Origin: Vampirovibrionales bacterium
GTDB taxonomy: Bacteria > Cyanobacteriota > Vampirovibrionia > Vampirovibrionales > Vampirovibrionaceae
DNA: 64,000 bases
Direction: 5' to 3'
NCBI GenBank assembly: GCA_035285165.1
Contig: JAYKHP010000007.1
Coordinates: 17,380 to 81,379 of the forward strand
The position numbers were made by a program, and so were the translations under genes. Each line of letters starts with the position of its first letter. Within the stretch, counting starts at the first letter, position 1. Shown here in pieces: positions 7,261 to 48,377 of the stretch. Below the pieces are notes generated by a model that saw only the letters and a list, made by a program, of their open reading frames with translations, made no database searches and was not told the origin of the DNA.

Positions 7261-7581
7261 TTAATTTTCCCAGCCATCCCACCAATCAGCTGCTGGAGCG
7301 TTACCCCATGTGTTTGGCGTTGCGCCTTGATAGGTTGTATCGCCTGCAACGCGGCCATTGATAGAAATTCTGCCATTATAATAAAGATCGATGGTAACTG
7401 ATTTGCCTGGCCCCACGGTGCTGCCAGAATATTTCCCGTCAGGATCAAAAGTGAAATAGATATAATGGTTGTTAGCGGTTTGTCCAAACCTATAGAGTGA
7501 CTGCAGCTTTAATTTGCCACCATTGTGCATTAAGAGACAAGGCTGCAACGATATACATGTAAGACTCGTCGAATCAGGCAT
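7261..7581 (-). CDS. Hypothetical protein, possibly the detached C-terminal beta-domain of the adjacent disrupted pilin-like gene
   Basis: 106-aa ORF in the same frame as the repaired pilin-like ORF upstream, separated from it only by a TAA. It is G/T/Y-rich and beta-type (YIYFTFDPDGKYSGSTVGPGKSVTIDLYYNGRISINGR). Confidence 0.35.
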   Translation of the reverse strand: MPDSTSLTCISLQPCLLMHNGGKLKLQSLYRFGQTANNHYIYFTFDPDGKYSGSTVGPGKSVTIDLYYNGRISINGRVAGDTTYQGATPNTWGNAPAADWWDGWEN

Positions 7582-7602
7582 ATCGTCAATGAAGCCAGTG
7601 CT

Positions 7603-7877
7603 TTAGATGCGCACGTAGTTCATGTAGGGCGCCAAATCGCCGGGATTCGTATTGACCGTCAAGGGGTTATTCGCTTTGTAAGCCTCAAAAGCCCCAGAAA
7701 TCATGGCAACGGTTTCTTTGGTTGACGCATTCCACGTGGAGTTCCGCTGGCTGATTAAAACTTTGGGAATTGTATGGGAATTGTAAATGTTGCAATAACA
7801 CCTAAAAGGGCAAGCGCAATCAAAAGCTCTGCCAGGGTAAGCCCATCTGTTTGTAGAAGGTTAAACTTTTTGAGCAT
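7603..7877 (-). pseudogene. Prepilin-type (type IV pilin / pseudopilin-like) gene disrupted by a perfect 11-bp tandem duplication
   Basis: The N-terminus MLKKFNLLQTDG|LTLAELLIALALLGVIATFTIP has a prepilin cleavage/methylation motif (G, then E at +5, then a hydrophobic helix). The reading frame hits a stop after 40 codons. Deleting one copy of TGGGAATTGTA (7764-7785) restores an 88-codon ORF ending at the TAA at 7603. Confidence 0.55.
7764..7785. repeat. Perfect 11-bp tandem duplication TGGGAATTGTA x2 inside the pilin-like gene
   Basis: Read directly: cttTGGGAATTGTATGGGAATTGTAaatg. Confidence 0.9.
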
Positions 7878-14607: not shown

Positions 14608-16236
14608 TTAAATCAGCGAGTTTTCTTCGGGCTCGTCCTCCAGATCCAGTTCGTCCGGGGCGTGTTCGTCATGTTTACCATGACTGGCGAAATGCTTTTC
14701 CAGTTGATCCAGTAAGAAACGCTTGGCTTTCTTGTCCCAAACGAACACCAGGTGCTTGTGGCCCTGGCCCTCCACAACAGAAAGCGGCAGGGAGGAGATA
14801 TTGCGTAGGTCAACAACAGGCCCTCGGAACCTTGAAATCCAGATGGGTTCTCGATCCTCAGGCGGCAGATACATCGGCTTGGGCTTGACGATGGTTTCCT
14901 CAAATCCGAAATCAAACGACAGCCCGCGTTGTTCGTAGTGCTTGCGCAACGCGATGACAATATCCCCCAGTTCGGCCAGGTGGCTGCCCTGGCTATATTT
15001 ATGAAGGTCAATGAACTTGAAGAGATCATGCGTCATCATCCGCTCGGCCAATTGGCGCAGCAGCGGGTCTTTGTTGGCATCAGTCGTCCAGGTGTTCAGC
15101 ACTTCCCAGAGATAGCAGTCATCCATTCTCAGATAAGACTGACACGTGAGGGAATGGCCGTCGCTCATCAGGGTATAAAGCTCGTTTGCCGGATGGCCGA
15201 TGTCAATTCCTTCTTCGCGGGCGGCTTTGAAGCGTTTCAGCACACAGTGCAGGATGGCTTCGGACGCTTTATCAAGCGAATGTAGCGCCATTTTATAGGC
15301 CTGAAAGCGTCCGAAGAGATAATGCTCAATGGCTGGGATGGCTTCTTCTCGAACGGCGATAACAGGCTGGCCCTGTGGCGTTTTGGCAATCACCAGGTTG
15401 GCGATGATCCGCTGGGCTTCAACGCGGCCATATTGTACGCCCAGGTAATGGCTGTCGCGCTGGAGATAATCCAATCTGTCCATGTCGAGCTGGCTGGATA
15501 CCAGATAAGCCAGGTAATGCTTGTTGCTGCGCTTTTTATAGCCTTGTTCAGCGCCAGGGGGCTTGGTGCTTTGTCCAGGTGGGTCTTCCCCCATAAATTG
15601 CAACAAGGCCTGGGGTAGTTGCGGGTCGTATTTTTGCCATATCTGGCAAAGTTCCTTATCCTCGCTTAAAATGCGACCGTTCCAGTAATGGTCATGGCTT
15701 AACCCGCGATCTTTAAGCTCCAGGATATCCTCAAGCGTGTGCGACAGAGGTGTATGGCCGATGTCGTGAATAAGAATGCTGACTAGTAAAAGCCGTTCGA
15801 CGGAAATGCCCGTATCTGTCTTGCTGCCTTCGGTGTCCGTTAGATGAAACGTGCTTTGAAGCACCTCACGCGTGTCGGGGTCGTTATTGAAATGCTCGAT
15901 GGCTTTCATCATCAGGTGAACGGCGCCAAGGCTGTGGATGAAGCGCGAGTGGGTGGCGCCTGGAAAGACGAATTCAGCCAGGCCCATCTGCTTGATTCTG
16001 CGCAGGCGCTGAAACGCGCTGGTGTTCATGATGTCCAGCAACAGCGCATGGGTTTCGTCGCGCCGGTCAAACTGGATCATCCCGTGAATCGGGTCAGCCA
16101 GGGACATCCGCTGTTGCATGCGGACATTGGGCTTGTGATGGCTGGAACTTGGATGTGAAGGCTTGGTGGCCATAAAGTCTGAAAGACGCCCCTCTGTTGT
16201 CCAAAACGAAAAATTCCTTACCGTCATTCCCGCCAA
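14608..16236 (-). CDS. HD-domain dNTP triphosphohydrolase-like protein (dGTPase/Dgt family)
   Basis: DPIHGMIQF...FQRLRRIKQMG...THSRFIHSLGV...LIHDIGHTPLSH motifs; acidic C-terminal tail. Start uncertain: alternative ATGs at 16173 and 16119. Confidence 0.75.
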   Translation of the reverse strand: MAGMTVRNFSFWTTEGRLSDFMATKPSHPSSSHHKPNVRMQQRMSLADPIHGMIQFDRRDETHALLLDIMNTSAFQRLRRIKQMGLAEFVFPGATHSRFIHSLGAVHLMMKAIEHFNNDPDTREVLQSTFHLTDTEGSKTDTGISVERLLLVSILIHDIGHTPLSHTLEDILELKDRGLSHDHYWNGRILSEDKELCQIWQKYDPQLPQALLQFMGEDPPGQSTKPPGAEQGYKKRSNKHYLAYLVSSQLDMDRLDYLQRDSHYLGVQYGRVEAQRIIANLVIAKTPQGQPVIAVREEAIPAIEHYLFGRFQAYKMALHSLDKASEAILHCVLKRFKAAREEGIDIGHPANELYTLMSDGHSLTCQSYLRMDDCYLWEVLNTWTTDANKDPLLRQLAERMMTHDLFKFIDLHKYSQGSHLAELGDIVIALRKHYEQRGLSFDFGFEETIVKPKPMYLPPEDREPIWISRFRGPVVDLRNISSLPLSVVEGQGHKHLVFVWDKKAKRFLLDQLEKHFASHGKHDEHAPDELDLEDEPEENSLI

Positions 16237-16279: not shown

Positions 16280-17293
16280 TCAGCCTTGATCCATCGTTTG
16301 TTTGGCGCGCGGGTGCGCCTTGAGATAAGCGCTTCTCAACCGTTCGGTGGAGAGATGGGTGTAAATCTGCGTGCTGCGAATGCTGACGTGGCCCAGCAAC
16401 TCTTGCACCACCCGCAGGTCAACCCCCTTATTCAGCAAATGAGTGGCAAACGTGTGGCGAAAGACGTGGGGGTGGATATGTCGTCCAAGCCCGGCCGCCT
16501 CGGCCAACTGATCCAGAATGCGCCGGATACTCCTGACATTCAAGGCTTCGCCCCGGTAATTGAGAAACACAGGATGCTTGCTGGCAAAGGGCTTCTGAGA
16601 CAAGTCGGCCCAGACGCTTTTGTAAAGCATCAGCGCCTTAAGCGCCTTCTGGCTGACAAAGGCGATGCGCTCGCGGGCGCCTTTACCAAAAATCCGCAAC
16701 TCGCCCTCTTCCCAGTTGATCTGTTCAAAGGTCAGTTGCGCAAGCTCGCTGACGCGGATGCCGGATGAAAAAAGCGTTTCGACAATCGCCAGGTTGCGAA
16801 GCGCCAACGATTGCTCGCTATTGGACGTTTCTGACAGTTTTTCCGCATGCCTTATTAAGCCCTGGATATCGTCCACGTTTAAAAACTCAGGCAGCTTCCT
16901 GGGCAACTTGGGGCGATGGAAACGCAAGGGCAAAGCGTCGGGCGTAAAAATGCCTTCTTTCATCAGGTATTTGAAATACGTTTTAAGGCAAGAGAGTTTT
17001 CGGGCCAACGTGCTTCTGGAAAGTCCCTTTTGTCCCAGCCAGGTGATGAATTGTCCTGGCATGTCGTTTAAAAGCGTTGGATTTGAAAGTGCAGGATTGC
17101 CAGCGGACGGAAGTGCTTCAATACTGGACAGCCACTGGCAGAACAGGGCCAGATCCGATTGATAGGCCCGAATCGTTTGTGACGAAAGGTTGCGGTTAAC
17201 CGCCAAGTGCGACAGGAAAGGCTCGACGCTTTCAAGCAGGCGTTGCCGGTTGGCGCCATCCAGAGGGAGTCGGGAACTCATGGGCTTTATCAC
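16280..17293 (-). CDS. Tyrosine site-specific recombinase, XerC/XerD family
   Basis: 337 aa; the C-terminal catalytic motifs HPHVFRHTFATHLL and LGHVSIRSTQIYTHL are typical of XerC/D. Confidence 0.85.
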   Translation of the reverse strand: MIKPMSSRLPLDGANRQRLLESVEPFLSHLAVNRNLSSQTIRAYQSDLALFCQWLSSIEALPSAGNPALSNPTLLNDMPGQFITWLGQKGLSRSTLARKLSCLKTYFKYLMKEGIFTPDALPLRFHRPKLPRKLPEFLNVDDIQGLIRHAEKLSETSNSEQSLALRNLAIVETLFSSGIRVSELAQLTFEQINWEEGELRIFGKGARERIAFVSQKALKALMLYKSVWADLSQKPFASKHPVFLNYRGEALNVRSIRRILDQLAEAAGLGRHIHPHVFRHTFATHLLNKGVDLRVVQELLGHVSIRSTQIYTHLSTERLRSAYLKAHPRAKQTMDQG

Positions 17294-19314: not shown

Positions 19315-19377
19315 CTTGCGCTAGGGTTTTCGCATGGGATGCTTTGCCCTACTCAGGCTTTGTCTGATAATGAAAAG

Positions 19378-21492
19378 ATGGCCATTCACCCTTCTCCCAT
19401 CCCCATTCAGAAAATTGACGCGGTCACGCTGTCTTACCTGGCGCGGGAGCTTCGCGGGATGCTTTTGGGTGCTCGCGTCAGCCGGATTACACACCCGGCG
19501 GCTAAGGAGTTTGTCATTTCCTTTTGGGGTCATGCGCATCCGGCAAATGCCGAAGATGCCGCCTTGCTGATTCCTCGCGGAGAGCTGAATCACTTTTACA
19601 TTAACCTTCACCCGGAATTTTGCTACGCGCTGTTGCTTGAGCCGGGCGAAAAAGACGCGCTGATTAAGACGACGCTGGATCATCCCACGGCGGTTTGTAT
19701 GCTGCTGCGAAAACACCTGGGTAACGCTACGGTGAGCGATGTTTTCGTACTGCCACATGAACGCGTCTTGAATCTTTGTTTTGAAAATTTCAACGAACTC
19801 GGTAACCGCGTCAAGCTGATTCTGTCCATCGAGCTGATGGGTAAGACGAGTAACATGGTGCTTTACGATGAATTGCAGGAAGAGATTCTCGCCCTGTCGC
19901 ATTCGGTGAGCGAAAAAATGAGCCAGTATCGTGAGATGACCGTGGGCAGCACCTATATCCCCCCACCCTTAACGCGCGGTAAAACGCCGATCAGCCAATT
20001 TAGCGATGCGGAATTTGAAGCACTTCTGACAACCGTTTCAGATACGGAGATAAACGCAAACACGCTTGCCGAGGCACTGGTTCAACGCCTGGCCGGTGTT
20101 GGTAAAATGATGCTTCGACAGGCGATTGAGATTTCCGAAAAACAAGCCGCTCAAAATAAAGCCAATAAACCCCAGGACGATTCCGTTTCTGATTTTTCAA
20201 AACGACTTTATCAATGCCTGATTCAGGTATCTCCGGATGTCTTGCAAGGTGTTTCATCAAATCGATTACAAGCTGATCACATTGCGCCGCGGATTTTATT
20301 TTCCAGTCCGTCTGTTAAAAACAAATCGCAAACGCCAATCCCGGCCGAGTTCTCACTCTTGCCTGATCCTGGGCGGGATTTATTGGATGATGCCCAAGCC
20401 TTTTCAACTGTGCATGAGATGCTGCGCGCGTATTTTCTGCCCAGAACCGCAGCCCTAAGGCTTGAAGAGTTCAGAACCCGCCTTCTTGCCAGTGTTGAAA
20501 CCGCCCAACGGCGACGCCTCAAGCGTGAGCAATCCCTCTCGCCGGATGCGGGGGATATCGAAGTTTTGCAACATGCGGGGCATTTAATGCTGGCTGCCGC
20601 CAACAGCGGAGGACTTCAGGGGGAACGGCCCGCAAAAGGGCTGGCGCTTGTGACGGATTATCAAAGCGGGGAAGAAATTTCGCTAGAGGTTGACCCGTCG
20701 CTAAGCTGGATGGAAAATGCCGAACGGTATTATCGACGCGCAAAAAAAGCCAAGGCCCGGCAGGCGCAATTTGTTTTGCAACAGGAGCAGTTGTCGCGCG
20801 AGGCGGCGTATCTGGAGGAGCTTGCCCTGATGATTGCGCAGGCCGATACCCTCAAAATGTTGCAGGTGATGGCCGATGAACTGGATACGTTTTTACGGGA
20901 GAAAAAGCAGAAGGCAGAATCACTGCCAAGTGCTGAAGGACTTAATCGTAGTTCAGGCAATCGAAAAAGTTTGAATTTCAAGCAAAAAGCCGCTAAGTCA
21001 CAAAAAAAACCGAAGCAGAAGGCGAGTCAGGGGAAAACGCCTCCCGGCTTGATAACGCTGCCGCTTGAGGCGGGAGGGCAGATCCTGGTGGGGCGTAGCG
21101 GCCAGGCCAACGGGGAGCTGGTGGGCCGATTGGGAAAACCGAATGACTGGTGGTTCCATGTTCACCAGATGCCGGGCAGCCATGTGGTTTTAAGACACGG
21201 AGAGTTAAAACATATGGGATTCAATCACGATCAAAAAGGAAACGATGAACCGGAAGATGCTTTAACCGCCAACTTGCCGCTTGATCCACAACAGCTTCTG
21301 CTGGCTGCCAATCTGGCGGTTTATTTCAGCACCGCGCGCGAAAGCAAAAACGTGCCGGTCATTTATACCCAAATCAAGCACGTTCGAAAAATTCCAGGGT
21401 CTTATCCCGGCCATGTGACCTACAAGCACGAGCAAAGCGTTTTTATTACCGTCGATGAGGCATTGATAAAATCCGCGCTGGGAATTGGCTAA
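19378..21492 (+). CDS. rqcH: RqcH/FbpA family (NFACT-N plus NFACT-R/DUF814) ribosome quality control homolog
   Basis: ~705 aa. The N-terminus has an NFACT-N-like fold, the middle is a coiled-coil, and the C-terminus carries DWWFHVHQMPGSHVVLRH (DUF814). Start at MAIHPS (19378). Confidence 0.75.
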   Translation: MAIHPSPIPIQKIDAVTLSYLARELRGMLLGARVSRITHPAAKEFVISFWGHAHPANAEDAALLIPRGELNHFYINLHPEFCYALLLEPGEKDALIKTTLDHPTAVCMLLRKHLGNATVSDVFVLPHERVLNLCFENFNELGNRVKLILSIELMGKTSNMVLYDELQEEILALSHSVSEKMSQYREMTVGSTYIPPPLTRGKTPISQFSDAEFEALLTTVSDTEINANTLAEALVQRLAGVGKMMLRQAIEISEKQAAQNKANKPQDDSVSDFSKRLYQCLIQVSPDVLQGVSSNRLQADHIAPRILFSSPSVKNKSQTPIPAEFSLLPDPGRDLLDDAQAFSTVHEMLRAYFLPRTAALRLEEFRTRLLASVETAQRRRLKREQSLSPDAGDIEVLQHAGHLMLAAANSGGLQGERPAKGLALVTDYQSGEEISLEVDPSLSWMENAERYYRRAKKAKARQAQFVLQQEQLSREAAYLEELALMIAQADTLKMLQVMADELDTFLREKKQKAESLPSAEGLNRSSGNRKSLNFKQKAAKSQKKPKQKASQGKTPPGLITLPLEAGGQILVGRSGQANGELVGRLGKPNDWWFHVHQMPGSHVVLRHGELKHMGFNHDQKGNDEPEDALTANLPLDPQQLLLAANLAVYFSTARESKNVPVIYTQIKHVRKIPGSYPGHVTYKHEQSVFITVDEALIKSALGIG

Positions 21493-21503
21493 GCTCATTG
21501 CTT

Positions 21504-21590
21504 TTTTTACGACAACTCTGGCGAGTCTGTTTGTTTTATGACAACTCTGGCGAGTCTGTTTTTTTACGACAACTCTGGCGAGTCGTCTTC
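21504..21590. repeat. Three tandem ~29-bp copies of tt(t)TA[C/T]GACAACTCTGGCGAGTC..., of which the last copy is the 3' end (including stop) of the 1198-aa gene
   Basis: Read directly: copies at about 21508-21533, 21537-21561 and 21566-21590. The reverse complement of copy 3 encodes ...EDDSPELS followed by the stop. Confidence 0.8.
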
Positions 21591-24500
21591 GTAAATCATG
21601 ACGTCGGGTTCGGGTGGGAGGCGGCGATCGAATTGCGCGTAATTCAGCCTTGAAACCCTTGGGCCATAGCCTTTTTCATTAAGAGGAGAATCCGCCTGCT
21701 CTTGATCCTGAGGGTTTTGACTGCGGCTTACGGTAGCCTCTTCCTGAATCTCGCCGGTCAAGTCCAGCGATGGCATATCAACGGAACGGGCTTCAAATGC
21801 CTGGTGGCGGCTTTCCTCATGCAGATCGGGAGCTGGATAACTGCCGTTATCATTCCCGTTATTATGTTCGTTATTATCCATGTTGAAACGTGCCCGAATC
21901 ACGTGCGGGGAGGTATATTGCGTTAAATGCAACGGCTGGGCTTCGTCAATGCGACGCTTGATCTTGCGAATCGCCATCTGGCAAACACTGCTGATAATCT
22001 CGCTGCTGCCCACCGCTTGCAGGTCAGCCAGCATCGTTAAAGCCCGATCAGTCGAGCCGATTTGTCCAAGGCTTCTCACGCAGGCCCACAGCAACGCTGG
22101 CGGCATGGTTGCTCTTGTCGCCTGGGGATAAACCTGCGTTGAAATGGCTGCCAGGATGGCATCTTCCGCCTGCCTTGCCGGACGTTTGCCAAGCGTTCGC
22201 ACCACCGCGATTTTCACGTCCTCATCCTCCTCAGGATCAAGCAACGTATTGGCCAGCGCGTGAAAAGCACCCTGCTCATCCATAAAGCTGAGCGAGTCGG
22301 CGGCCAGCGCGCGAATCGCCGGATCGCTGTCCTGGTGTAATCTTGCAATCAGGGCCTTAATGGCGTCTGGCCCCGGGTATTTCTGTAAGCCGACGCAGGC
22401 GTATTTTCGGATTTCGGGCACCGGATCGTCAATCGCATCCAGTAAGCTGTTTTGCACAAAAGGCGATTCTCGATCATTAGACGGATTGTGATCATCTGCC
22501 AGAAACTTGATGGAGCAGAGGCGTACGCTTTCATCCGCGTCTGATAGGCCCTTGATGAACACGGCGGTCAAATCGTGCGACCAGCGGTATTTTACCAACG
22601 CCTGGTATGCCTGGGCGCGAATGGCCTCATATTCATCGTCCAATGCTTCCAACATCGATTCCACAAAGCGCTTGTGAAAGTCCGGCTCGGTGGTCTTTTG
22701 GCTAATAAGCGCAAGGTTTTGCGCCGCGTATTCGCGCACCATCGTATCCATGTCTTTGAGGGCGGTAAACAACGCCTGCCTGGATTTTTCCGAATCGATC
22801 AGCGCCAGGTTATTCAGCGCTGTCACTCGAATGGCGGGCTGTTCGGATTTCAGGCTGTCGATAAAAAGCCTTTCGAGAAATTCGGGCATATCCGTATTGC
22901 CAAGCGAATGGCAAAGCGAAAGGACTTCTTGGGTCTTTGCCCGATCCAGCTCGCCTGTTTGAATCGAAAGGGGAATGATTTTTTTCAGGTAACGCAGTTT
23001 TTCTTCCGTCGGTAAATCAGCCTCGACGCTTGCGGTTTTGCTTTCCAGAAACTCGCGGTCAATGCGGTTCTGGAAAATAAACCACTTGTCGGCAAACGGC
23101 GTCTGGTTGGTGACGGCGGACTTGCTTTTGGCGAAGGGCTGAATGAACTGGTACTGCGCCAGCCGTTGCAGCACCTCATACACAAACGTTTCACCAAGCT
23201 GCTGCGAGAGGTAAACTTCCGAAATAGCGTCACCCGCCTTGAAGGGCTGACCGCCAAATGTTTTTAGCAAGGCCGCAATGGCCTTTTCCAGTTTTTCCTC
23301 CTGCTGGAGAAACGCCAATTTGATGCGCGTGTATGACAGTTCAAGCAGGTCTTCGGGTTGATCGATGCAAAGCCGGTTATAGAACTCCAGATCCAGGTGC
23401 CGGATGCGATTGGCGTGTGAACGTTCAATGAGATAGCGCGCCGCGCGGTTATGCCAGTAAGGGTTTCCTTGTGTCAGGGTGTAAACCTGTAAGTGGACGT
23501 TTTCGTCAAATTCAAGCCCGGCGCTATGGAAGCGCATGCGGAAAAGTTTTCTGGCTTGCGCCTCGTCCAGGGGGGCAAGCAGGAGCTTGGTTCTAAATTG
23601 GTGGAAAAGGTTTCCCCCGAGGCTATTGCTCTGCCCCAGCGTATCGCAGCCTAGTAGCAGCATCAGGCGGGTTTGTTGAGGGATGCCGGGGCGTCCCCCC
23701 TCTCGATTGTCTCCCGTTTCATTCAACAGGTCATACAGCATTTGTTTCAGTTCATTTTGCTGCGGCTGGGGAATATCGCTAACCCCTTCCCAGTGATCGA
23801 AGAGCAACAGCAGCGAGCTGTCGATGCTGGCAATGCCCTGGTTGATGAAGTCGAAAACCTGTTGCAGATGGGCGCTCATTTCGGCTACCGGCCCATGATC
23901 CTTTTGCTTAGGTGTTCTGGCTTTTTTCTTTGCAAGATTTGAAGAAAGAGCCGAGGCGGGTTCGGCATCCGAATCAGTATGCTGATCAGCGCTGTCCGTT
24001 TCTTGCTCCTGGTTCTGCAAAGTGTTCTGAAAAAACTGGGGACGCTTGGCTTCCCAGTCTTGGGTATAATTCAGATCAAACAAACGGTTGCCGTCCTTGA
24101 TTTCATCCGAAAGGGCAAACGCGGTTTTCAGACGGGGGTCGATGGGGTTGGCCAGTTGGCAGGCCAGCACCACCCAGGGGTTGAGGATAAATTTTACCAG
24201 CTTGTCGATGTGCGTGTTCAAGGACAACCTGAGTTTTTTCATGGTGGGCAGCGAATTTTTAATGGCCTTGGCCAGTTGTTCTTCGCTTGAAATTTTCGGG
24301 GGCGAGGATTTTTGGGAAGTTTTTGCCGGAGTGCTTTTTTCCGTATTACTTTTCTCAAGCCCACTTTCAAGCCCGTTTTCAAGATGAATAGCATCCTGAA
24401 GCTGTGCCAGCGATACGGCGCGGATGAGATCCTGGGTTTCCCAAACCAGCCCGATGTTGGCCAATTCTTCGTTAATGGCGATTAGTGCTTCCTGTATCAG

Positions 24501-25160
24501 CCGATCCGCATCCTGACGAAGGCTGTCGATTAAGGTTACATAGAAATGCTGTGGCGTTTTGAAATGATGCAGCCTGCAGTCAATGATGCGGGAATAAACC
24601 GACTGGCGAACCAGTTCGATAAAGCTGTCGATCAGGGCGGTTTTCCCCATGCCGGTATCCGCTGTCAGCAGCACCGCTTTTAGTTGTCCCTGGCGAGAGA
24701 GGTGAATCAGCTTGAGCAGTTGGCGCAATTCTGTTTTTCGTCCCACGATTTCGACGGTTTCAACAAGGTAAGCGTCGTTCGTGGCCGCAGCGCCCGCATA
24801 AGGCGAGGAGGCCGCCAACTCTCCCGGCAGCATCGAGGCAGTGTCGTTTCGGTTTGAAAATCCCATCCCTGAAAGTCCAAGCCCGGAGAGCCCCAGATTT
24901 TGGCTGAAAAGGCTTTTTTCCGCTGTCGCCGACGGCAGGGGAACGAGGTGCTCAAGTCCATGGGGCTCTGGTTGAGAACGGCTCTTATCGGCACCCATGG
25001 CGTTGATTTTCTTACCTGTATCCGTGTTACCGCTTTGAGAAGGTGCGGGAGAGTCCTGCTGCATTAGCGTAGGAGAGCTTGCGGGTTGCCGATTGAGCGC
25101 TTTTGGGTTGGAAGGGGTTTCTGAAAAGCCGGTCTGATCGGTCGGATAAGAAGAACTCAT
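21564..25160 (-). CDS. Large P-loop NTPase (AAA_16/STAND-like) with a disordered S/P/Q-rich N-terminus and a C-terminal array of HEAT/PBS-lyase-type repeats
   Basis: 1198 aa. Walker A is LLTADTGMGKTALIDSF, candidate Walker B is SLLLLFDHWEG, there is a long helical middle, and there are at least 6 HEAT-like repeats (PAIRVTALNNLALI, DTMVREYAAQNLALI, YEAIRAQAYQALVKY, ESVRLCSIKFLAD, VPEIRKYACVGLQKY, DPAIRALAADSLSFM, EDVKIAVVRTLG). Confidence 0.7.
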   Translation of the reverse strand: MSSSYPTDQTGFSETPSNPKALNRQPASSPTLMQQDSPAPSQSGNTDTGKKINAMGADKSRSQPEPHGLEHLVPLPSATAEKSLFSQNLGLSGLGLSGMGFSNRNDTASMLPGELAASSPYAGAAATNDAYLVETVEIVGRKTELRQLLKLIHLSRQGQLKAVLLTADTGMGKTALIDSFIELVRQSVYSRIIDCRLHHFKTPQHFYVTLIDSLRQDADRLIQEALIAINEELANIGLVWETQDLIRAVSLAQLQDAIHLENGLESGLEKSNTEKSTPAKTSQKSSPPKISSEEQLAKAIKNSLPTMKKLRLSLNTHIDKLVKFILNPWVVLACQLANPIDPRLKTAFALSDEIKDGNRLFDLNYTQDWEAKRPQFFQNTLQNQEQETDSADQHTDSDAEPASALSSNLAKKKARTPKQKDHGPVAEMSAHLQQVFDFINQGIASIDSSLLLLFDHWEGVSDIPQPQQNELKQMLYDLLNETGDNREGGRPGIPQQTRLMLLLGCDTLGQSNSLGGNLFHQFRTKLLLAPLDEAQARKLFRMRFHSAGLEFDENVHLQVYTLTQGNPYWHNRAARYLIERSHANRIRHLDLEFYNRLCIDQPEDLLELSYTRIKLAFLQQEEKLEKAIAALLKTFGGQPFKAGDAISEVYLSQQLGETFVYEVLQRLAQYQFIQPFAKSKSAVTNQTPFADKWFIFQNRIDREFLESKTASVEADLPTEEKLRYLKKIIPLSIQTGELDRAKTQEVLSLCHSLGNTDMPEFLERLFIDSLKSEQPAIRVTALNNLALIDSEKSRQALFTALKDMDTMVREYAAQNLALISQKTTEPDFHKRFVESMLEALDDEYEAIRAQAYQALVKYRWSHDLTAVFIKGLSDADESVRLCSIKFLADDHNPSNDRESPFVQNSLLDAIDDPVPEIRKYACVGLQKYPGPDAIKALIARLHQDSDPAIRALAADSLSFMDEQGAFHALANTLLDPEEDEDVKIAVVRTLGKRPARQAEDAILAAISTQVYPQATRATMPPALLWACVRSLGQIGSTDRALTMLADLQAVGSSEIISSVCQMAIRKIKRRIDEAQPLHLTQYTSPHVIRARFNMDNNEHNNGNDNGSYPAPDLHEESRHQAFEARSVDMPSLDLTGEIQEEATVSRSQNPQDQEQADSPLNEKGYGPRVSRLNYAQFDRRLPPEPDVMIYEDDSPELS

Positions 25161-25361
25161 AAGCGTTTTTCAATACTTTCTCTCTCTCGCTACTGCTTGA
25201 AGTCGTTTTACACATCCTGTTGTGCCCAGATATCCCTCCAGATATCCCTGGAGACATTATATAATAGCATTGCCCCCATATCAAAACGTGGCGTTGCCTT
25301 GATAAGGTATTGTTATCAACGATGACAGTTTCGGCAAACCGTCACGCTATTTAAGAAAGAC

Positions 25362-28396: not shown

Positions 28397-29527
28397 TTAT
28401 CGTGTTTCAAGCGTTGTATAGGGGCGGTTGCGATCGCCTTCGTATAGAACTTTCGGGCGAATCAGCTTGTTGTTGTCAAGCTGTTCAATCACATGGGCCG
28501 TCCAGCCCGCAACACGCGAGAGCGCGAAAATCGGGGTGTAGATTTCAATGGGCAGGCCCATCATGTAATATACGTAAGCCGTGGGGAAGTCGACGTTGGG
28601 CAGAATGTTCTTCTCGCGCTTAATCGTGCTTTCAACGATGGTGGCAATCTCGTGCCACTTGGTTTCACCCAGTTGCTGGGACATCTTGCCTGCCATTTCG
28701 CTCAGGATAAACGCCCTGGGGTCACCGGTCTTATAGGCGCGATGTCCAAAGCCCATGATTTTTTTCTTTTTTGCAAGCGCGTCCATAATGTAGGCTTCGG
28801 CTTTATCGGGCGAACCGATTTCAATCAGCATTTTCATCGCCTCCTCGTTGGCCCCCCCGTGAAGCGGGCCTTTGAGTGCGCCAATGGCCGAGACAACACC
28901 GGAATACATATCGGAAAGCGTCGAGGTCGTCACGCGTGCGGCAAACGTCGAGGCGTTAAACCCATGATCGGCGTAGCAAATCAGGGTGGCGTCAAACGTC
29001 TTGGCGAAATAAGGGTCGGGCTTTTTGCCCAGTAACGTGTATAAAAAATTCTCGGAATGATTGAGGCTATTGTCGGACTCAATCGGTTCCTGTCCCTGGT
29101 TGATCCGGTAGCTGTGGGTAATCAGCGCCGGGAATTTTGCGGTCAGACGAACGGCCTTGCGCACGTTTGCCTCATGGCTGTTGTCCGTCAATTCAGCATC
29201 ATAAAAGCAAAGCATCGCAACACCGGCGCGCAGCAAATCCATTGGATGAGCCCCTTGCTTGGGCAGCGTCCGAAAGGCATCGGTAATCTGCTGGGGAATG
29301 CCACGCTCTTTTTTTAGCGTGTCAGAGAATTCAGCCAACTGGGCTTTTGAAGGCAGTTCACCGTAAATCAGCAGGTAGGCGGTTTCTTCGTAAGTCGATT
29401 TGTCCACCAGGTCGCGGATGTCATAGCCGCGATACATCAGGCTGTTGATGTCTGAGTTGACGAAGGAGAGTTTTGTCTCGCCGGCGATGACGCCTTCAAG
29501 CCCCGGACTGTATGCGGCTGTTGTCAT
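28397..29527 (-). CDS. prpC: 2-methylcitrate synthase (citrate synthase family)
   Basis: 376 aa; citrate-synthase motifs (GYGHRVYK-type: GFGHRAYKTGDPR). Called prpC because of the adjacent prpB and prpD. Confidence 0.8.
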   Translation of the reverse strand: MTTAAYSPGLEGVIAGETKLSFVNSDINSLMYRGYDIRDLVDKSTYEETAYLLIYGELPSKAQLAEFSDTLKKERGIPQQITDAFRTLPKQGAHPMDLLRAGVAMLCFYDAELTDNSHEANVRKAVRLTAKFPALITHSYRINQGQEPIESDNSLNHSENFLYTLLGKKPDPYFAKTFDATLICYADHGFNASTFAARVTTSTLSDMYSGVVSAIGALKGPLHGGANEEAMKMLIEIGSPDKAEAYIMDALAKKKKIMGFGHRAYKTGDPRAFILSEMAGKMSQQLGETKWHEIATIVESTIKREKNILPNVDFPTAYVYYMMGLPIEIYTPIFALSRVAGWTAHVIEQLDNNKLIRPKVLYEGDRNRPYTTLETR

Positions 29528-29606
29528 ACGTGTTTCCCTTTTAAAGTTTTATAATGCAACCGAAATTGACTGTCTCACCACTTGCGATTCACTAAAAATT
29601 GGTCGG

Positions 29607-30527
29607 TTAAGTTTTTTTGGAGTACTGGGTGGCCAGACTGGCGTCAAGCGACTCGTAAGCCTGGTAATGGATCAGCTCGTACAGGGCCTCACGGCTTGTC
29701 ATGCGATCCAGGATCGATCGCTGGCTGCCCTCGCTCTTGAGCGTCCGGTACGTCTCGGCGACGGCGCCCATCATCATACGAAACGCGGTCATCGGGAAGA
29801 TAACCATATTATACCCAAAACGTTCAAATTCCTGAAGGTTGAACAGCGGCGTCTTGCCAAACTCGGTCATATTGGCCATCAAAAGACCGCTGACCTCCTT
29901 CCGATAGAGGAGGAACTCTTCCTCGCTTTCAAGCGCCTCGGCAAAAATCATGTCGGCCCCGGCGGACAGGTAGGCGTTGGCCCGTTCGATGGCATCAGCC
30001 AAGCCATAGACGGCCTTTGAATCAACCCGAGCTATCAGGAGAAAATCCGGGTTACTTCTGGCTTCTTTAGCGGCTGCGATTTTTTCGATCATCGCCTCGG
30101 TGGAGATGACCTGCTTGCCGTTCAAGTGCCCGCAGCGTTTGGGAATCAACTGATCCTCGATGTGGATGCCCGAGAGACCTTCTCGCTCGTATTGCTGAAC
30201 GGTTCGAAAAACGTTGATCGCTTCACCGTAGCCGTTATCACCGTCAGCAATGGCTGGAAGGCTTGTGGCTCTGGCTGTATAACCTGCCTGTGTGGCCATT
30301 TCACCCGCCGTCATAAAGCCGATGTCCGGATAGCCGCCCACGCCGTTGGCAATACCCGCGCCCGAAATGTAGAGCGCCTCGAATCCTTCGGCTTCGGCCA
30401 ATTTAGCGCTAATGGCATTAAACGCGCCGGGAAGCGCTACGGTTGCATGTTTTTTTAACAGATCGCGTAAGATTTTTGGTTTGTTGATGTTTTGCTTGGA
30501 AAGAAGCGCTTCTTGAGATGTTTCAGG
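29607..30527 (-). CDS. prpB: Methylisocitrate lyase (ICL/PEPM family)
   Basis: PEPM-family active-site region (IEDQ...KRCGH). Start placed at MPETSQ (30527); the track ORF start at 30569 would overlap prpD. Confidence 0.85.
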   Translation of the reverse strand, partial: PETSQEALLSKQNINKPKILRDLLKKHATVALPGAFNAISAKLAEAEGFEALYISGAGIANGVGGYPDIGFMTAGEMATQAGYTARATSLPAIADGDNGYGEAINVFRTVQQYEREGLSGIHIEDQLIPKRCGHLNGKQVISTEAMIEKIAAAKEARSNPDFLLIARVDSKAVYGLADAIERANAYLSAGADMIFAEALESEEEFLLYRKEVSGLLMANMTEFGKTPLFNLQEFERFGYNMVIFPMTAFRMMMGAVAETYRTLKSEGSQRSILDRMTSREALYELIHYQAYESLDASLATQYSKKT

Positions 30528-30549
30528 CATTGGGCATTTCCATTTTCTT

Positions 30550-31983
30550 TTATTGCTCATCAAGAACAAATAATTTTAGGATATCGCCGATATTTTGACA
30601 GTCCTCAATTTTCCACAAGGCATCCAACTGTTTCTGGATTTGCTTTTCATCGAACGCGCGCTTGGCAAGCGTTCTGAATTTATGCTCGATATCCGAATCC
30701 TGCATCGGATTTTTCGCATGGCCAAGCGGATAGGCGACCTCTTTTTCAAAGACCTTTCCATCGGCAAGCTTGATGACAATCAGGTTGGGGATGCCTTCGG
30801 GATAGCCTGCCGTCATTTTGGCGTTACGATTAACCTTTACTTTCTGGATCAGATCGACCAGGCGTGCATCCTGGATGCGTTCCTGGGTAAACGTATCCAG
30901 TGTGATCTCGCCATCCATCAGCGCTGCCGAAACGCAGTAGGGCATGCTGTGATCCGCCGTCTCCCGGCTTTGCGGTCGCCAATGCTCTTTGAAGCCCGCG
31001 ATGATATCGACTGCGGCGTCAAAACTTTCAATGGTGATCGACTCAATATGCTGGTCGATATCCTGCGGAGCCTTTACGCCAGTGTGCTTTACGATTTGAT
31101 CGCGCAGTTCAAAAGCCGCTTCGATTGCGCTCTGGCTGTGGTATTCGGCGGGGAAGTGCTTGACGTAGGTTTTGTTGATCATAAACGCTGCGCCGTTAAC
31201 GCCGCCCAATGTGGGCAGTTCAAATTCGCCTGAAATCTGTTTCCAAAAGCCCATTTCACCCTCGAAAATCTCGGAGGGGCCTGTCATGCCATGTTTTGCC
31301 AAAAGGGCCGCAAAAACGGCGTTGCGAGAGGCGTTGGCAAAGGCGCAACCTTTCCAGTTGGAGAGTTCACCGACTCTGGTCTGCCGCATCGCGTTATTGG
31401 GCGTGGCGGCAAGTCCTTGCACATGAACCAATTGCGTTTTGTCGAGACCATAAAGTTTTCCGCTGGCCAGTCCCGCGGAAAAAGACCCGTAGGTGACGTG
31501 ATCCCAGCCCCTGGCACGGATGCTGGCGGCGTCGCACAATCGGCACTGGATTTCGTAGGCCAGGACAATTGCGGTTAAGATATCTTTTCCGTTTTTACCT
31601 TCGGCTTCCGCCACGGCTAAAATAGCGGCAATGTTATCGCTTGGGTGGGCGGGCTCCAGGCTGAGATAGGTGTCGTTGAAGTCGAGGTAGCGAAACAGCA
31701 CGCCATTTGCGAAAGCGGCGTTTTCCACGCTGCTTTTGTGTTTCGTGAAAATAACCGTGGCGCCGTCTTTTGACTCACTCAGTCTGGCGACCGTTCTTGA
31801 AATCCTTGCCGGGTCGCTGTCCTTGGCGCCAATGGCGCAGCCGAGCGAATCGATAATCCTACGCTTGGCTTCTTGCAGGGCTTCCTTGGGAAGATTGTCA
31901 TAGCTCAGGCTGTCCGCGTACTCCGCCAGCCGGTGGGCCAATAACGTCTGTTTGCCGGTTTGGGTTGTTTGTGTCGCTGCCAC
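30550..31983 (-). CDS. prpD: 2-methylcitrate dehydratase (MmgE/PrpD family)
   Basis: MmgE/PrpD fold across ~478 aa. A GTG start at 31983 with GAGGG 10 nt upstream fits better than the track ORF start at 32166, which adds a 60-aa basic leader. Confidence 0.8.
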   Translation of the reverse strand: MAATQTTQTGKQTLLAHRLAEYADSLSYDNLPKEALQEAKRRIIDSLGCAIGAKDSDPARISRTVARLSESKDGATVIFTKHKSSVENAAFANGVLFRYLDFNDTYLSLEPAHPSDNIAAILAVAEAEGKNGKDILTAIVLAYEIQCRLCDAASIRARGWDHVTYGSFSAGLASGKLYGLDKTQLVHVQGLAATPNNAMRQTRVGELSNWKGCAFANASRNAVFAALLAKHGMTGPSEIFEGEMGFWKQISGEFELPTLGGVNGAAFMINKTYVKHFPAEYHSQSAIEAAFELRDQIVKHTGVKAPQDIDQHIESITIESFDAAVDIIAGFKEHWRPQSRETADHSMPYCVSAALMDGEITLDTFTQERIQDARLVDLIQKVKVNRNAKMTAGYPEGIPNLIVIKLADGKVFEKEVAYPLGHAKNPMQDSDIEHKFRTLAKRAFDEKQIQKQLDALWKIEDCQNIGDILKLFVLDEQ

Positions 31984-32317
31984 GATATTAAAGCCCTCGT
32001 TCAAAATCAACGGTGATGCAAAACAGGCTTGGGTGCCTGAAACAGGATGCTTTTTATGCGTATGCCCTTTCGGGGTGTCGTTATTTACTCTACTAGAATT
32101 CCCGCCCCCCAGCAATAGCGCCGGGTGCTTCCTACTTGGTGCTTCCTTGCGGGTAATTCCTGACAATGCAAAAGATCGCTCCCTCAGTAGGATGAAGCGG
32201 CTTGTTTTTTTAAGTTGTTTTCCGCCCTCCCCATCGCTACAATATCAGCCAGGGTCATTCATCTTGTTATGGACGGGTTTCTCATATTAAGCCAAGCAAA
32301 TATAAGGTAGTTGCGCC

Positions 32318-34522
32318 ATGCAGGCAGGCGGATTCGCTCAATCGTTACCAATTTTCTCTGCTTCATCAGCTTTTCCGGTTTTGAATCGATTTTCATCGGC
32401 AGGAGACAGCCCTCGTTTTGGGGCCGCCTCCACTGATTCTGTTGCTTTGAAAACAACGCCCCGAAATACTCAGGGCGCTCCTTACCTGAAACTGCGCCCC
32501 TCCAAGAGTCAGGAACGGTTTGACCTCATTGTGATTGGCGGCGGTATCAACGGGACAGGCATTGCCCGTGATGCGGCATTGCGCGGCTTGAAAGTTCTTG
32601 TGGTGGAAAAAGACGACCTGGGTTCGGGAACCTCCTCTGCCTCTACCCGGCTTGCCCATGGGGGACTGCGCTATCTCAAGAGCCTGGAAGAAGCTGTCGA
32701 TGATATCGTGCAATACGCCGCAAAAGAACGACACCCGCTTCGCATTGCTTCATTTATCAAGCAGCGATTGTCCCAGACGGATGTGCAACTGGTGTGGGAA
32801 TCAGTCAACGAACGCGAGCGCCTGCTGAGAAACGCGCCGCATCTTGTGAAGGAAATGCGCTTTGCAATTCCGGTTTACAAGCCCGGGGAGAATGCGCCCG
32901 AGGCGGTGCGAAAAAATTACGACTCCTTTTGGAAAATCGCCCTTGGGTTGAAGTTGTATGATTCCTTCTTCTTGGGAAAAACCGTCGAAAATTCCGATGT
33001 CCACCCTTTGGCCTGGCTGTTGGGCCGCTCAAACAAGACCTTCAGCAGGCAGTTCCCCAGTATCAGCGCGGACGGGCTTGAAGGCGGCGTGACGTATTCT
33101 GATGCGCAAATTGTTTTGCCTGAGCGAATTTGCGTTGAAAATGCCGTTTCGGCCCTTGAGACGCACAACGCGCAATTGATGACGCATGGGGAAGTCTGGA
33201 AACTGTTAACCGAGGATTGTGTCGGCAGTGGCGCGGACAAGGTCTGCCATCCGGGATCCGGAGCGAAATCCCATGTGAGCGGGGTGGCTTTTAAAGATAC
33301 GCTGAGCGGTGAAGAATACCGTGCCGAGGGAAAAGTGATCGTCAATGCCGCCGGGCCCTGGGTGGATGAAATAGCCAAATTGACTGGCGGTAAGGCCCTG
33401 GGAAAGGGCCACGAGATGCTGGGCGGTACCAAGGGGACGCACCTGGTGGTTAAAGGCTTTCCCGGCGCCCCGGATGCGTCAGTTTATGTTCAGGACAGTA
33501 AGAGCGGCAGACCGTTCTTTATTATTCCCTGGCAGGTCAAATACAACCGGGAGGGTGCCGTGGACAAGAGCGAAACGCTCTATTTGATTGGCACCACGGA
33601 TGATAAGTATACGGGCAGCCTGGATGATGTCCATCCTGTTCAGTCTGAAATCCAATACCTGCTTGAAGAAACCAATCTCGTTCTTCCAGAGGCGCGTCTT
33701 AAACAGAATGACGTTCTGTACGCTTATGCGGGCGTCCGTCCATTGGTCAAATCGAACCAGGACGTTGAGGGCAAGATGTCTCGCAAACACTACGTGGCCG
33801 ATCACGGCCAGGCCAGGCCCTATGCCGAATACAAGGGCCCCCATGGCGAAGCGGAAGTCCCCGCCGAAGATCGCCTGCCGGGCTTTATGTCGGTTATTGG
33901 CGGCAAGTTGACTGTTTATCGCGCGCTTTCGGAAGATACGGTTGATACGGCGGTCAGGAACTACGGTTTGCGGCTGGAGGATGGAACGCTGCCCAAGAAG
34001 GGCGCGACGAAGCGAACGCCTCTGCCTGGCTCTGAAGGGATTGTAAGTCCCAAGGGAAAAAAGCCCAAGGGAAAAAAGCAGGATGCGCAGTTTAAACGCT
34101 ATATCGAAGAGAACCTGGATGAGGCGGTCTCCAATTATATGCTGCCGCGTGATACGGCCCGCGCGCTGATGAATTTTTACGGCATTCGCTATCGCCAGGT
34201 ATTGGATTTGACGTTTGATAACAGTGAACTGAAAGAGCCGCTTGTGGTAGGTTCACCCAGAATCAAGGCCCAGGTGGCGCATTCGATTCTCAATGAACAC
34301 GCCTATACCCTGATGGATATCATGCGGCGGATGGGGGCCAACTGGTCTGCCGATAACGGTCTGTCGGAAATCGAATCGGTGGCTGAAGTCGCTTGTCGCT
34401 ACCTGAATTGGGATAGCGTGCGCCGCGATGAGGAAGTGGCCAAGTACCGGGCGTATGTGGATCATTTTTACCGCGCCTACCAGAAAACCTCCGCTCGCAA
34501 TGACATAACGCCAGCCTCTTGA
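32318..34522 (+). CDS. FAD-dependent glycerol-3-phosphate dehydrogenase family oxidoreductase (GlpD/GlpA-like), unusually long
   Basis: The DLIVIGGGINGTGIARDAALRGL dinucleotide-binding motif and SSASTRLAHGGLRYL are GlpD hallmarks. At 734 aa it has an N-terminal 60-aa leader and internal insertions. Confidence 0.75.
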   Translation: MQAGGFAQSLPIFSASSAFPVLNRFSSAGDSPRFGAASTDSVALKTTPRNTQGAPYLKLRPSKSQERFDLIVIGGGINGTGIARDAALRGLKVLVVEKDDLGSGTSSASTRLAHGGLRYLKSLEEAVDDIVQYAAKERHPLRIASFIKQRLSQTDVQLVWESVNERERLLRNAPHLVKEMRFAIPVYKPGENAPEAVRKNYDSFWKIALGLKLYDSFFLGKTVENSDVHPLAWLLGRSNKTFSRQFPSISADGLEGGVTYSDAQIVLPERICVENAVSALETHNAQLMTHGEVWKLLTEDCVGSGADKVCHPGSGAKSHVSGVAFKDTLSGEEYRAEGKVIVNAAGPWVDEIAKLTGGKALGKGHEMLGGTKGTHLVVKGFPGAPDASVYVQDSKSGRPFFIIPWQVKYNREGAVDKSETLYLIGTTDDKYTGSLDDVHPVQSEIQYLLEETNLVLPEARLKQNDVLYAYAGVRPLVKSNQDVEGKMSRKHYVADHGQARPYAEYKGPHGEAEVPAEDRLPGFMSVIGGKLTVYRALSEDTVDTAVRNYGLRLEDGTLPKKGATKRTPLPGSEGIVSPKGKKPKGKKQDAQFKRYIEENLDEAVSNYMLPRDTARALMNFYGIRYRQVLDLTFDNSELKEPLVVGSPRIKAQVAHSILNEHAYTLMDIMRRMGANWSADNGLSEIESVAEVACRYLNWDSVRRDEEVAKYRAYVDHFYRAYQKTSARNDITPAS

Positions 34523-45341: not shown

Positions 45342-45871
45342 CGTTGCTGAATATAGTGCTGAAGATTGGCCATTTCAAGGGCGGCCAGGGCGACATCCAT
45401 ACCCTTGTTTTCAGCCTTTTGTCCTTCGTGCGTTTTAAATCCGGCGCGTGCTTCTGCTTGTTCCAGATTCTCGGTGGTCAGCACGCCAAACATAATGGGC
45501 ACACCGCTTTGAAGGCTCGCCTCGTTGATGCCGCGTGCCGACTCGTTGCAGACATAATCATAATGGGTGGTTTCACCGCGAATCACGCAGCCAAGGGCGA
45601 TAATCGCCGCGTATTTTCCCGTTTTGGCAAGGCTCAGGCTTGCCAACGGCAGCTCAAACGCGCCAGGAACCCACGCGACATCAATGTCCTGCGGGCTTAC
45701 GCCTTGCTCGATCAGGGTATTATAAGCGTTTTCAAGCAGCGGTTCGGTGATATGGCTGTTGAAACGCGAGACGGTGATGGCCAATTTGAAGCCACGGCCC
45801 TCGGTACTGACCGCAAAGCTTGGAATCTCTGGCCTTGCCTGAGACTTACTCTGAAATCGTAAATTACTCAT
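45338..45871 (-). CDS. ribH: 6,7-dimethyl-8-ribityllumazine synthase
   Basis: 177 aa; [22 protein letters not shown]...[16 protein letters not shown]. Confidence 0.9.
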
Positions 45872-47219: not shown

Positions 47220-47249
47220 GGTGTTGACTGCGTCTTATTTTCTAAGCGG

Positions 47250-48032: not shown

Positions 48033-48377
48033 CGCTGGCCCTTTTTTGTATGTGCTTGAGTCAAAACTTTGTATGGGTTTGCGTCAAAACAAGGTTGACC
48101 TTAGGGAGTATTTTAGCCAAAACACTGCTTTGCCGATACTGATCCTTAAAACCTGCCGTTTCGGAAAAACTTGCCGTTTCTGCTCAGGAAATTGATCCAA
48201 TGGCCGAGGCCGAATCATCCATTTGCCCGTTACCGTTGGCCAAAACCCAGGCTATCCTGAAAGAAACTTTTGCATGAAATGGCCTCTGCCTTTCATTTTT
48301 CAGGTTTTTTGGGTTTCTCCGGATTTATGGAAATCCTTTATTTGCGCCCTTACGGCAGTAACCTTGCTGGATTCATT

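What the first reader, a model, noticed from the sequence alone, without database searches (positions are those of the whole stretch)
7261..7877. Prepilin-type gene inactivated, or phase-switched, by a perfect 11-bp tandem duplication, with an in-frame downstream ORF separated only by a TAA
The N-terminal reading frame hits a stop at codon 40. Removing one copy of the perfectly duplicated 11-mer TGGGAATTGTA (7764-7785) restores an 88-codon ORF. That repaired ORF is in the same frame as the next ORF (7261-7581), separated from it only by a TAA at 7603. The locus therefore looks like a once-larger pilin gene carrying a slip-type duplication. An 11-bp direct duplication is the classic footprint of replication slippage. 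It can act as an ON/OFF switch in surface-structure genes, or simply mark a pseudogene.
Basis: seen in the sequence. Interest (0 to 1): 0.55.

Follow-up and report, generated by a model that had tools for sequence, protein, structure and literature searches.

The report
Dead pilin gene with two lesions
This is a type IV pilin gene in an uncultured Vampirovibrionales bacterium that was knocked out recently by an 11-base tandem duplication plus a separate premature stop codon, so it is an ordinary pseudogene from a large multi-copy gene family and not an on/off switch.

Summary
Window 7764-7785 is a perfect two-copy 11-bp tandem repeat inside a minus-strand prepilin gene (ATG at 7877). It shifts the frame after codon 34 and gives a 40-aa stub. 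Removing one copy and reading through the in-frame TAA (7605-7603) gives a 201-aa protein. That protein matches more than 1,250 intact proteins of about 190-200 aa over 94-98% of its length, on both sides of the TAA. So 7261-7877 is a single former gene.

A reversible switch is unlikely for four reasons: there are only two repeat copies, a second independent lesion would still truncate the protein, TAA is the organism's main stop codon, and two further assemblies from separate runs carry both lesions (a third contig carries the same 40-aa stub). No intact allele was found anywhere. A strain 98% identical in leuD-bolA has a different gene at this position.

Verdict: a recent pseudogene in a gene family that gains and loses copies. 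Low interest.

The parts
7261..7877 (-). The whole pseudogene. It derives from a former 201-codon type IV pilin-family gene. The locus is 617 nt now and 606 nt when one repeat copy is removed.
   Evidence: The repaired, read-through translation matches more than 1,250 proteins. The best hits have E about 1e-56, 52% identity, 94-98% query coverage and lengths of about 190-200 aa. Alignment A1 spans both lesions.
7755..7877 (-). The only remaining open reading frame that starts at the original ATG. It encodes 40 aa: the leader MLKKFNLLQTDG, then LTLAELLIALALLGVIATFTIP, then the out-of-frame tail IQFPKF and a stop.
   Evidence: TIGR02532 scores 24.7 bits against a cutoff of 16.3. PF07963 scores 23.6 bits against a cutoff of 21.2. 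Gly-1 is codon 12 (7844-7842) and Glu+5 is codon 17 (7829-7827), read from the sequence.
7764..7785 (.). Perfect 11-bp x2 tandem duplication (gene sense TACAATTCCCA|TACAATTCCCA). It adds 11 nt, shifts the frame, and sits inside the family-invariant motif ATFTIPK.
   Evidence: Searches give 100% match and 2.0 copies. In A1 the invariant columns T30 F31 T32 I33 P34 K35 flank the site. Chance expectation is 0.025 per window.
7603..7605 (-). In-frame TAA nonsense codon. It is codon 88 of the repaired gene and is a second, independent inactivating lesion.
   Evidence: Homologs run through this column with sense residues: D in 78 of 120, then Q, E, V, K, Y and others. TAA is the commonest genuine stop codon in the window, ending 26 of 41 genes. 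The same TAA is present in L001 and L002.
7261..7602 (-). Remnant coding sequence for the C-terminal globular (beta-sheet) domain of the pilin. It includes the 106-aa ORF 7261-7581, which has no signal peptide of its own.
   Evidence: It keeps all the A1 family-invariant residues of this half: D94, C104, C110, G116, D141, K155 and G165. It has no Pfam hit on its own. No gene is called here in the Logan contigs.
7761..7767 (-). The heptamer C_CCA_AAG, which the duplication places in the X_XXY_YYZ register of the zero frame, two codons before the TAA at 7757-7755. It is a formal -1 slippery site and most likely an incidental by-product of the duplication.
   Evidence: Read directly from the sequence. 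The 81 nt downstream fold no better than shuffles (z = -0.16). That X_XXA_AAG heptamers are shift-prone in E. coli is recalled from memory and was not tested here.

Best explanation
Window 7261-7877 (minus strand) is a recently inactivated copy of a Vampirovibrionales type IV pilin-family gene that was about 200 codons long. It carries two independent lesions.

- **Lesion 1.** An 11-bp tandem duplication, probably a replication-slippage or repair error, lies inside the invariant TIPK motif at the end of the membrane-embedded part of the N-terminal helix. It shifts the frame after codon 34 and stops translation at codon 41.
- **Lesion 2.** A point mutation has created TAA at what was codon 88.

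The only product that can be made from the original start is a 40-aa stub: the signal peptide plus the hydrophobic helix. The C-terminal beta-sheet domain cannot be made or exported.

The family has many interchangeable copies per genome in relatives, and this copy sits alone at a strain-variable spot. Its loss is therefore ordinary gene turnover and not regulation.

**Shown:** the two lesions, the single-gene ancestry, family membership, the pilin fold of the family, the presence of both lesions in two other assemblies, and the low level of decay.

**Inferred:** slippage as the cause, the lack of function, and the tolerance of the loss. I could not see other family copies in this genome.
For: - **Duplication and frames:**
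- **Prepilin N-terminus above curated cutoffs:**
- **Single-gene ancestry:** the repaired, read-through 201-aa product hits more than 1,250 proteins at up to 209 bits with 94-98% coverage, and no hit exceeds 52% identity, so no intact allele is on record.
- **Alignment across both lesions:** the duplication lies in the invariant ATFTIPK motif and the TAA lies in a variable column.
- **Little decay:** a family HMM built without the window sequence scores the repaired product 264 bits, rank 82 of 121, against a family range of 235-290. It deviates at 5 of 49 conserved columns against a family median of 2. All five changes are conservative, and they include Phe to Leu at mature position +1.
- **TAA is a real stop:** it is the dominant stop codon in the window, 26 of 41.
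- **Reproducibility:** the same two-copy state and the same TAA are in Logan contigs from SRR19514063 and SRR19514068. The diagnostic 40-aa product is recorded on 3 contigs.
- **Redundancy in the family:** 4 tandem copies in L087 and 13 in 20 kb of L088.
- **Strain-variable position:** a JGI contig that is 97.9% identical over leuD-bolA diverges exactly at the bolA stop and carries a zeta-toxin-like gene instead.
Against: - The sequence has decayed very little apart from the two lesions. This would also fit a gene that is still used in some way.
- All assemblies that carry the locus come from neighbouring SRA run numbers, probably one study and one population. Fixation across independent populations is therefore not shown.
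- Raw reads could not be inspected, so a minority one-copy subpopulation cannot be excluded.
- I could not confirm that this genome holds other intact family copies or a pilus assembly machinery. None lies in the 64-kb window.
Confidence: 0.86

Rival explanations
1. Reversible ON/OFF switch. The 11-bp duplication is gained and lost by slipped-strand mispairing, as in the tandem-duplication switch of pneumococcal cap3A, so that this pilin is turned off and on within the population.
For: The duplication is perfect, lies in a surface-structure gene, and in principle can be removed precisely by slippage between the two copies. The rest of the gene is barely decayed. A precedent exists: tandem duplications in cap3A switch the capsule off and their reversion switches it on (Waite et al. 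2001, as summarised in PMC11163986).
Against: - Only two copies are present, with no longer tract.
- Precise excision would still leave TAA at codon 88. The resulting 87-aa product would lack the whole beta domain, including the invariant Cys pair.
- TAA is the normal stop codon here.
- Every assembly that covers the site has two copies.
- No protein corresponding to a one-copy allele was found among 5.8 billion clustered proteins.
- No DNA match with 0-22 nt between the flanks (one, two or three copies) was found in JGI metagenomes.
Confidence: 0.05
2. Sequencing or assembly artefact. The real gene is intact, and the duplication, the TAA, or both are errors in this assembly.
For: The source is a metagenome-assembled genome, and such assemblies do contain indel errors. 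The gene looks otherwise healthy.
Against: Two further assemblies made by a different pipeline from different runs are 100% identical through both lesions: L001 over 3,943 bp and L002 over 1,344 bp. A 22-bp structure is shorter than a typical assembly k-mer or a read, so it is not a graph artefact (inference). Two unrelated errors within 160 bp are improbable.
Confidence: 0.03
3. Leaky expression by recoding. The duplication happens to create a C_CCA_AAG heptamer in the -1 frameshift register, followed closely by a stop. A -1 shift there would return ribosomes to the pilin frame and give a variant with a 4-residue insertion (TIP-IQFP-KVL). Together with readthrough of the TAA this could yield some full-length protein.
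For: The heptamer is in the correct register, and a zero-frame TAA lies two codons downstream.
Against: There is no stimulatory structure downstream (z = -0.16). The site is a by-product of the duplication and is not conserved in homologs. The insertion would fall in an invariant helix segment. A second recoding event at an ordinary TAA would also be needed.
Confidence: 0.02

Closest known systems
Type IV pilins (type IVa-like; solved examples Dichelobacter nodosus FimA 3sok, Neisseria gonorrhoeae pilin 1ay2, Thermus PilA5 6xxe)
Multi-copy pilin gene sets in Cyanobacteria and Melainabacteria (Vampirovibrio chlorellavorus is reported to encode a complete type IV pilus gene set, PMC4451040)
   Same: The source is a Vampirovibrionales genome. 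Relatives carry many copies of the same pilin family, in arrays of 4 and 13. In one relative, a family member lies two genes upstream of a prepilin peptidase gene.
   Different: The copy studied here is solitary. It sits between bolA and a convergent PPC-domain gene, with no pilus genes in 64 kb, and it is inactivated.
Tandem-duplication phase variation of pneumococcal capsule gene cap3A (Waite et al. 2001, cited in PMC11163986)
   Same: In both cases a short perfect tandem duplication inside the ORF of a surface-structure gene causes a frameshift.
   Different: In cap3A, reversion restores a full-length gene and both states are seen in culture. Here reversion would still leave a nonsense codon, and only the duplicated state has been observed.
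Simple-sequence contingency loci in pilus genes (for example homopolymer tracts in Neisseria pilC; recalled from memory)
   Same: Frameshifting by repeat-number change in a pilus-related gene.
   Different: Contingency loci have long tracts of 1-6-nt units that vary between isolates. This locus is a two-copy 11-mer with no observed variation.

Membership tests
Prepilin-type (class III signal peptide) proteins / type IV pilins | Short positively charged leader ending in Gly at -1, which is the prepilin peptidase cleavage site | tested here: met
   The leader is MLKKFNLLQTDG, followed by LTLAELL. Gly is at codon 12 and aligns with the family's G|FTLAELL.
Prepilin-type (class III signal peptide) proteins / type IV pilins | Glu at +5 and a hydrophobic helix of about 20 residues; match to TIGR02532 / PF07963 above the curated cutoff | tested here: met
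   Glu is at codon 17. TIGR02532 scores 24.7 bits (cutoff 16.3) and PF07963 scores 23.6 bits (cutoff 21.2) on the 40-aa ORF. The repaired protein scores 20.8 bits on TIGR02532.
Prepilin-type (class III signal peptide) proteins / type IV pilins | Phe (less often Met) as the N-methylated first residue of the mature protein | tested here: not met
   The window has Leu at +1, whereas 97% of 120 family members have Phe. Whether Leu is tolerated was not testable.
Prepilin-type (class III signal peptide) proteins / type IV pilins | Pilin fold: long N-terminal helix packed against an antiparallel beta sheet | tested here: met
Prepilin-type (class III signal peptide) proteins / type IV pilins | An intact reading frame able to encode the whole subunit | tested here: not met
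   A frameshift follows codon 34 and a TAA sits at repaired codon 88. The locus is therefore a pseudogene of this family, not a functional member.
Prepilin-type (class III signal peptide) proteins / type IV pilins | Prepilin peptidase and pilus assembly genes in the same genome | not testable with these tools
   None lies in the 64-kb window and the rest of the genome was not available. In relative L083, a peptidase A24 gene lies two genes downstream of a family member.
Type II secretion major pseudopilin GspG (TIGR01710) | Score at or above the equivalog cutoff over the full model | tested here: not met
   The score is 27.2 bits against a cutoff of 88.85, and only model positions 2-57 (the N-terminal helix) match. 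NCBI's name 'type II secretion system protein' for homologs is generic.
Phase-variable contingency locus / reversible tandem-duplication switch | Repeat-number variation at the site among cells, reads or strains | tested here: inconclusive
   All assemblies covering the site have two copies. A pattern allowing 0-22 nt between the flanks found nothing else in JGI metagenomes. The assemblies probably sample one population, and raw reads were not available.
Phase-variable contingency locus / reversible tandem-duplication switch | The ON state (one copy) encodes the complete functional protein | tested here: not met
   The one-copy sequence still ends at the TAA after 87 aa, whereas homologs continue for about 110 more residues.
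Programmed -1 ribosomal frameshift site | Slippery heptamer in register, plus a stimulatory element, plus conservation in relatives | tested here: not met
   The heptamer C_CCA_AAG is in register. The downstream fold is no better than shuffles (z = -0.16). The heptamer register exists only because of the duplication, so it cannot be conserved.

The most novel reading that the evidence does not exclude
The duplication is a working, slowly reversible switch, or a leaky one via the C_CCA_AAG -1 slippery site that it creates, on a solitary pilin copy. On this reading the TAA is either polymorphic in the population or leaves a short, helix-only pilin that is still assembled. The locus would then be regulated and not dead.
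Probability: 0.04. Interest if true: 0.4.

Novelty: new member of a known kind. Interest (0 to 1): 0.12.

Why it matters
It matters little as a finding. It is a clean, well-documented example of how a copy in an expanded pilin family dies, by a slippage-type duplication plus a nonsense mutation, and it should be annotated as one pseudogene and not as two small ORFs.

The more interesting by-product is the family itself. It is a Vampirovibrionales-wide set of roughly 190-200-aa pilins, with more than 1,250 hits in the protein database. Members share an invariant ATFTIPK helix motif, have an uncharacterised globular domain, and occur in arrays of up to 13 copies in 20 kb. Such arrays may underlie surface variation or prey attachment in these bacteria, some of which are predatory, and this could merit a separate study.

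Tried and rejected
- **JGI metagenome DNA scan.** I scanned for the duplication flanks with 0-22 nt between them, to catch one-, two- or three-copy alleles. There were 0 hits.
- **JGI metagenome protein scan.** I scanned for close protein relatives of the repaired gene. 289 word matches were found, but none was confirmed.
- **GTDB representative genomes via LeuD.** The aim was to find syntenic relatives. The source species is not represented. The nearest Vampirovibrionales LeuD is only 57% identical, and its locus (L003) has no pilin after leuD.
- **Exact look-up of the 106-aa downstream ORF.** It is not on record.
- **Synteny of the best homologs.** They lie in unrelated neighbourhoods, so no ortholog could be defined. 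P0016 could not be located.
- **Sequence search of the PDB with the family profile.** Only the N-terminal helix matches, so a structure prediction was needed to test the fold.
- **Pfam scan of 39 window ORFs for pilus or T2SS genes.** None was found.
- **Promoter and terminator scan around the gene.** Nothing above the shuffle expectation.
- **Rfam scan of the window.** No hits.
- **Programmed frameshift idea.** The heptamer is in register, but no stimulatory structure is present.
- **Recoded TAA.** Rejected, because TAA ends 26 of 41 genes in the window, including this gene's own natural end.

Full report
**1. The observation**

The gene lies on the minus strand. From the ATG at 7877 it reads MLKKFNLLQTDG|LTLAELLIALALLGVIATFTIP, then IQFPKF and a stop (40 aa; the stop is at 7757-7755).

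At 7785-7764 in the gene sense, the sequence TACAATTCCCA occurs twice in perfect tandem. The neighbouring bases do not extend the repeat.

A perfect 11-bp tandem pair is expected about 0.025 times in a shuffled window of this size. My own scan for perfect tandem pairs with period 8 or more found periods 9, 11, 12, 15, 15 and 21. Only the 11-mer is not a multiple of three.

Deleting one copy restores TFTIPKVLISQRN... for 87 codons, up to a TAA at 7605-7603. The 106-aa ORF 7581-7261 is in that same frame, seven codons further on. The one exception is that the stop is codon 41, not codon 40.

**2. It was one gene**

I translated the locus with one copy removed and the TAA read as X, which gives 201 aa. 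This protein finds more than 1,250 proteins with E at or below 1e-3. The best hits have 209 bits and E about 1e-56. They are 190-215 aa long and cover 94-98% of the query.

The 26-sequence alignment A1 runs without a break across both lesions. The duplication sits inside the family-invariant ATFTIPK. The TAA falls in a variable column that holds Asp in 78 of 120 members, then Gln, Glu, Val, Lys, Tyr and others. Several of these residues are one base change away from TAA.

The part downstream of the TAA keeps all invariant residues of that half: D94, C104, C110, G116, D141, K155 and G165.

**3. What family it belongs to**

- **N-terminus.** It passes the curated thresholds for the prepilin cleavage/methylation domain. 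TIGR02532 scores 24.7 bits against 16.3, and PF07963 scores 23.6 bits against 21.2.
- **Not GspG.** It is far below the GspG equivalog cutoff (27 bits against 88.85).
- **PDB by sequence.** Only the N-terminal helix matches solved pilins.

The family is therefore a type IV pilin family with a divergent globular domain. NCBI names its members generically as 'type II secretion system protein [Vampirovibrionales bacterium]'.

**4. Source and context**

Exact matches to the neighbouring proteins identify an NCBI MAG labelled Vampirovibrionales bacterium. The matching proteins are LeuD MEB3286636.1, BolA MEB3286635.1 and a PPC-domain protein MEB3286633.1.

The gene follows leuC-leuD-bolA on the same strand, 32 bp after bolA. 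It converges on the PPC-domain gene, with aspartate kinase beyond that.

No other prepilin motif occurs in the window. No pilus or T2SS gene occurs either.

In relatives, family members occur as singletons among housekeeping genes. In one case a prepilin peptidase lies two genes downstream. They also occur as arrays: four tandem copies in GCA_001858525.1, and thirteen copies within 20 kb of an ENA contig.

V. chlorellavorus is reported to have a complete type IV pilus gene set (PMC4451040).

**5. How decayed is it?**

An HMM built from 120 homologs, without the window sequence, scores the repaired product 264 bits. That is rank 82 of 121, and the members themselves score 235-290.

At 49 columns that are at least 85% conserved, the repaired product deviates five times. 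The family median is two, and 7 of 120 members deviate as much or more. All five changes are conservative, but one is Phe to Leu at mature position +1.

The gene has therefore hardly drifted, which means inactivation is recent.

**6. Population evidence**

- Logan contigs from SRR19514063 (100% identical over 3,943 bp) and SRR19514068 (100% over 1,344 bp) carry the same two copies and the same TAA.
- The diagnostic 40-aa product is recorded on three contigs.
- A third run, SRR19514073, has a 99.9%-identical contig that ends 90 bp into the 3' end of the gene.
- No protein more than 52% identical to the repaired product exists among 5.8 billion clusters. No intact or one-copy allele has therefore been assembled anywhere.
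- Two JGI metagenome scans found nothing.
- A JGI contig that is 97.9% identical over leuD-bolA loses all similarity at the bolA stop codon. It carries a zeta-toxin-like gene there instead. This position therefore varies between close strains.

**7. Mechanism and rivals**

The best reading is a pseudogene made by two independent hits in a dispensable copy of a family that gains and loses members (confidence about 0.85).

- **Reversible switch (cap3A-like).** This is disfavoured. There are only two copies, reversion would still leave an 87-aa truncated product, TAA is the main true stop codon (26 of 41), and only the duplicated state has been seen.
- **Assembly error.** This is disfavoured by the agreement between independent assemblies.
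- **Recoding.** The duplication happens to put C_CCA_AAG into a -1 slippery register just before the new stop. A -1 shift would regenerate the pilin frame with a 4-residue insertion. However, there is no stimulatory structure (z = -0.16), and the TAA would still end translation.

**8. Verdict**

The kind of event is well known, so interest is low. The expanded Vampirovibrionales pilin family is the more noteworthy side result.

Noticed in passing
L088 1-15300 (ENA ERZ27332908 k141_502210) and L087 10001-12815 (GCA_001858525.1 LAPX01000005.1): The pilin family is greatly expanded in relatives. One contig has thirteen intact copies of about 165-200 aa within 20 kb, in groups of 5, 5 and 3. Another has four copies in tandem. 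All share GFTLAELLIAL..GVIATFTIPKVL.
   Followed up: partly
L086 618-1334 (JGI 3300004463 Ga0063356_100774574), compared with window 7912: A strain 97.9% identical over leuD-bolA diverges exactly at the bolA stop codon. It carries a zeta-toxin-like gene where the window has the pilin pseudogene. That toxin gene's P-loop start (MDKPQCFIIGGPNGS...) is in a different frame from the rest, so it too looks frameshifted.
   Followed up: partly
window 34049-34079, 39220-39261, 48983-49007, 25226-25249, 58430-58459: These are other perfect short tandem duplications with periods 15, 21, 9, 12 and 15. The ones inside genes are in frame: a DAO-family oxidoreductase, the Obg GTPase 3' end, and a DegT aminotransferase. 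This contrasts with the out-of-frame 11-mer.
   Followed up: partly
window 21502-21584: A 29-bp unit is repeated 2.9 times (92% match). It lies between the convergent NFACT-family gene (19339-21492) and the 1,198-aa AAA/HEAT-repeat gene (21564-25160), and overlaps the 3' end of the latter.
   Followed up: no
window 48270-53047: This is a cluster of a DegT-type aminotransferase, a GNAT/FemAB-like acyltransferase, a UDP-GlcNAc 2-epimerase and NeuB. It looks like a nonulosonic-acid (sialic/pseudaminic-like) sugar pathway, which in other bacteria glycosylates flagellins or pilins (this last point is from memory).
   Followed up: no
window 28397-32166: Citrate synthase, a PEP-mutase/isocitrate-lyase-family protein and PrpD lie together on the minus strand. 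This looks like a methylcitrate-cycle gene set.
   Followed up: no
window 45864-48200: The riboflavin genes ribBA and the riboflavin synthase alpha chain are present. However, the Rfam gathering scan found no FMN riboswitch, and no other RNA family anywhere in the 64 kb.
   Followed up: no
window 16280-17293: A XerC/XerD-type tyrosine recombinase (Phage_integrase plus the SAM-like N-terminal domain) lies next to a 542-aa ORF with no Pfam match (14608-16236).
   Followed up: no
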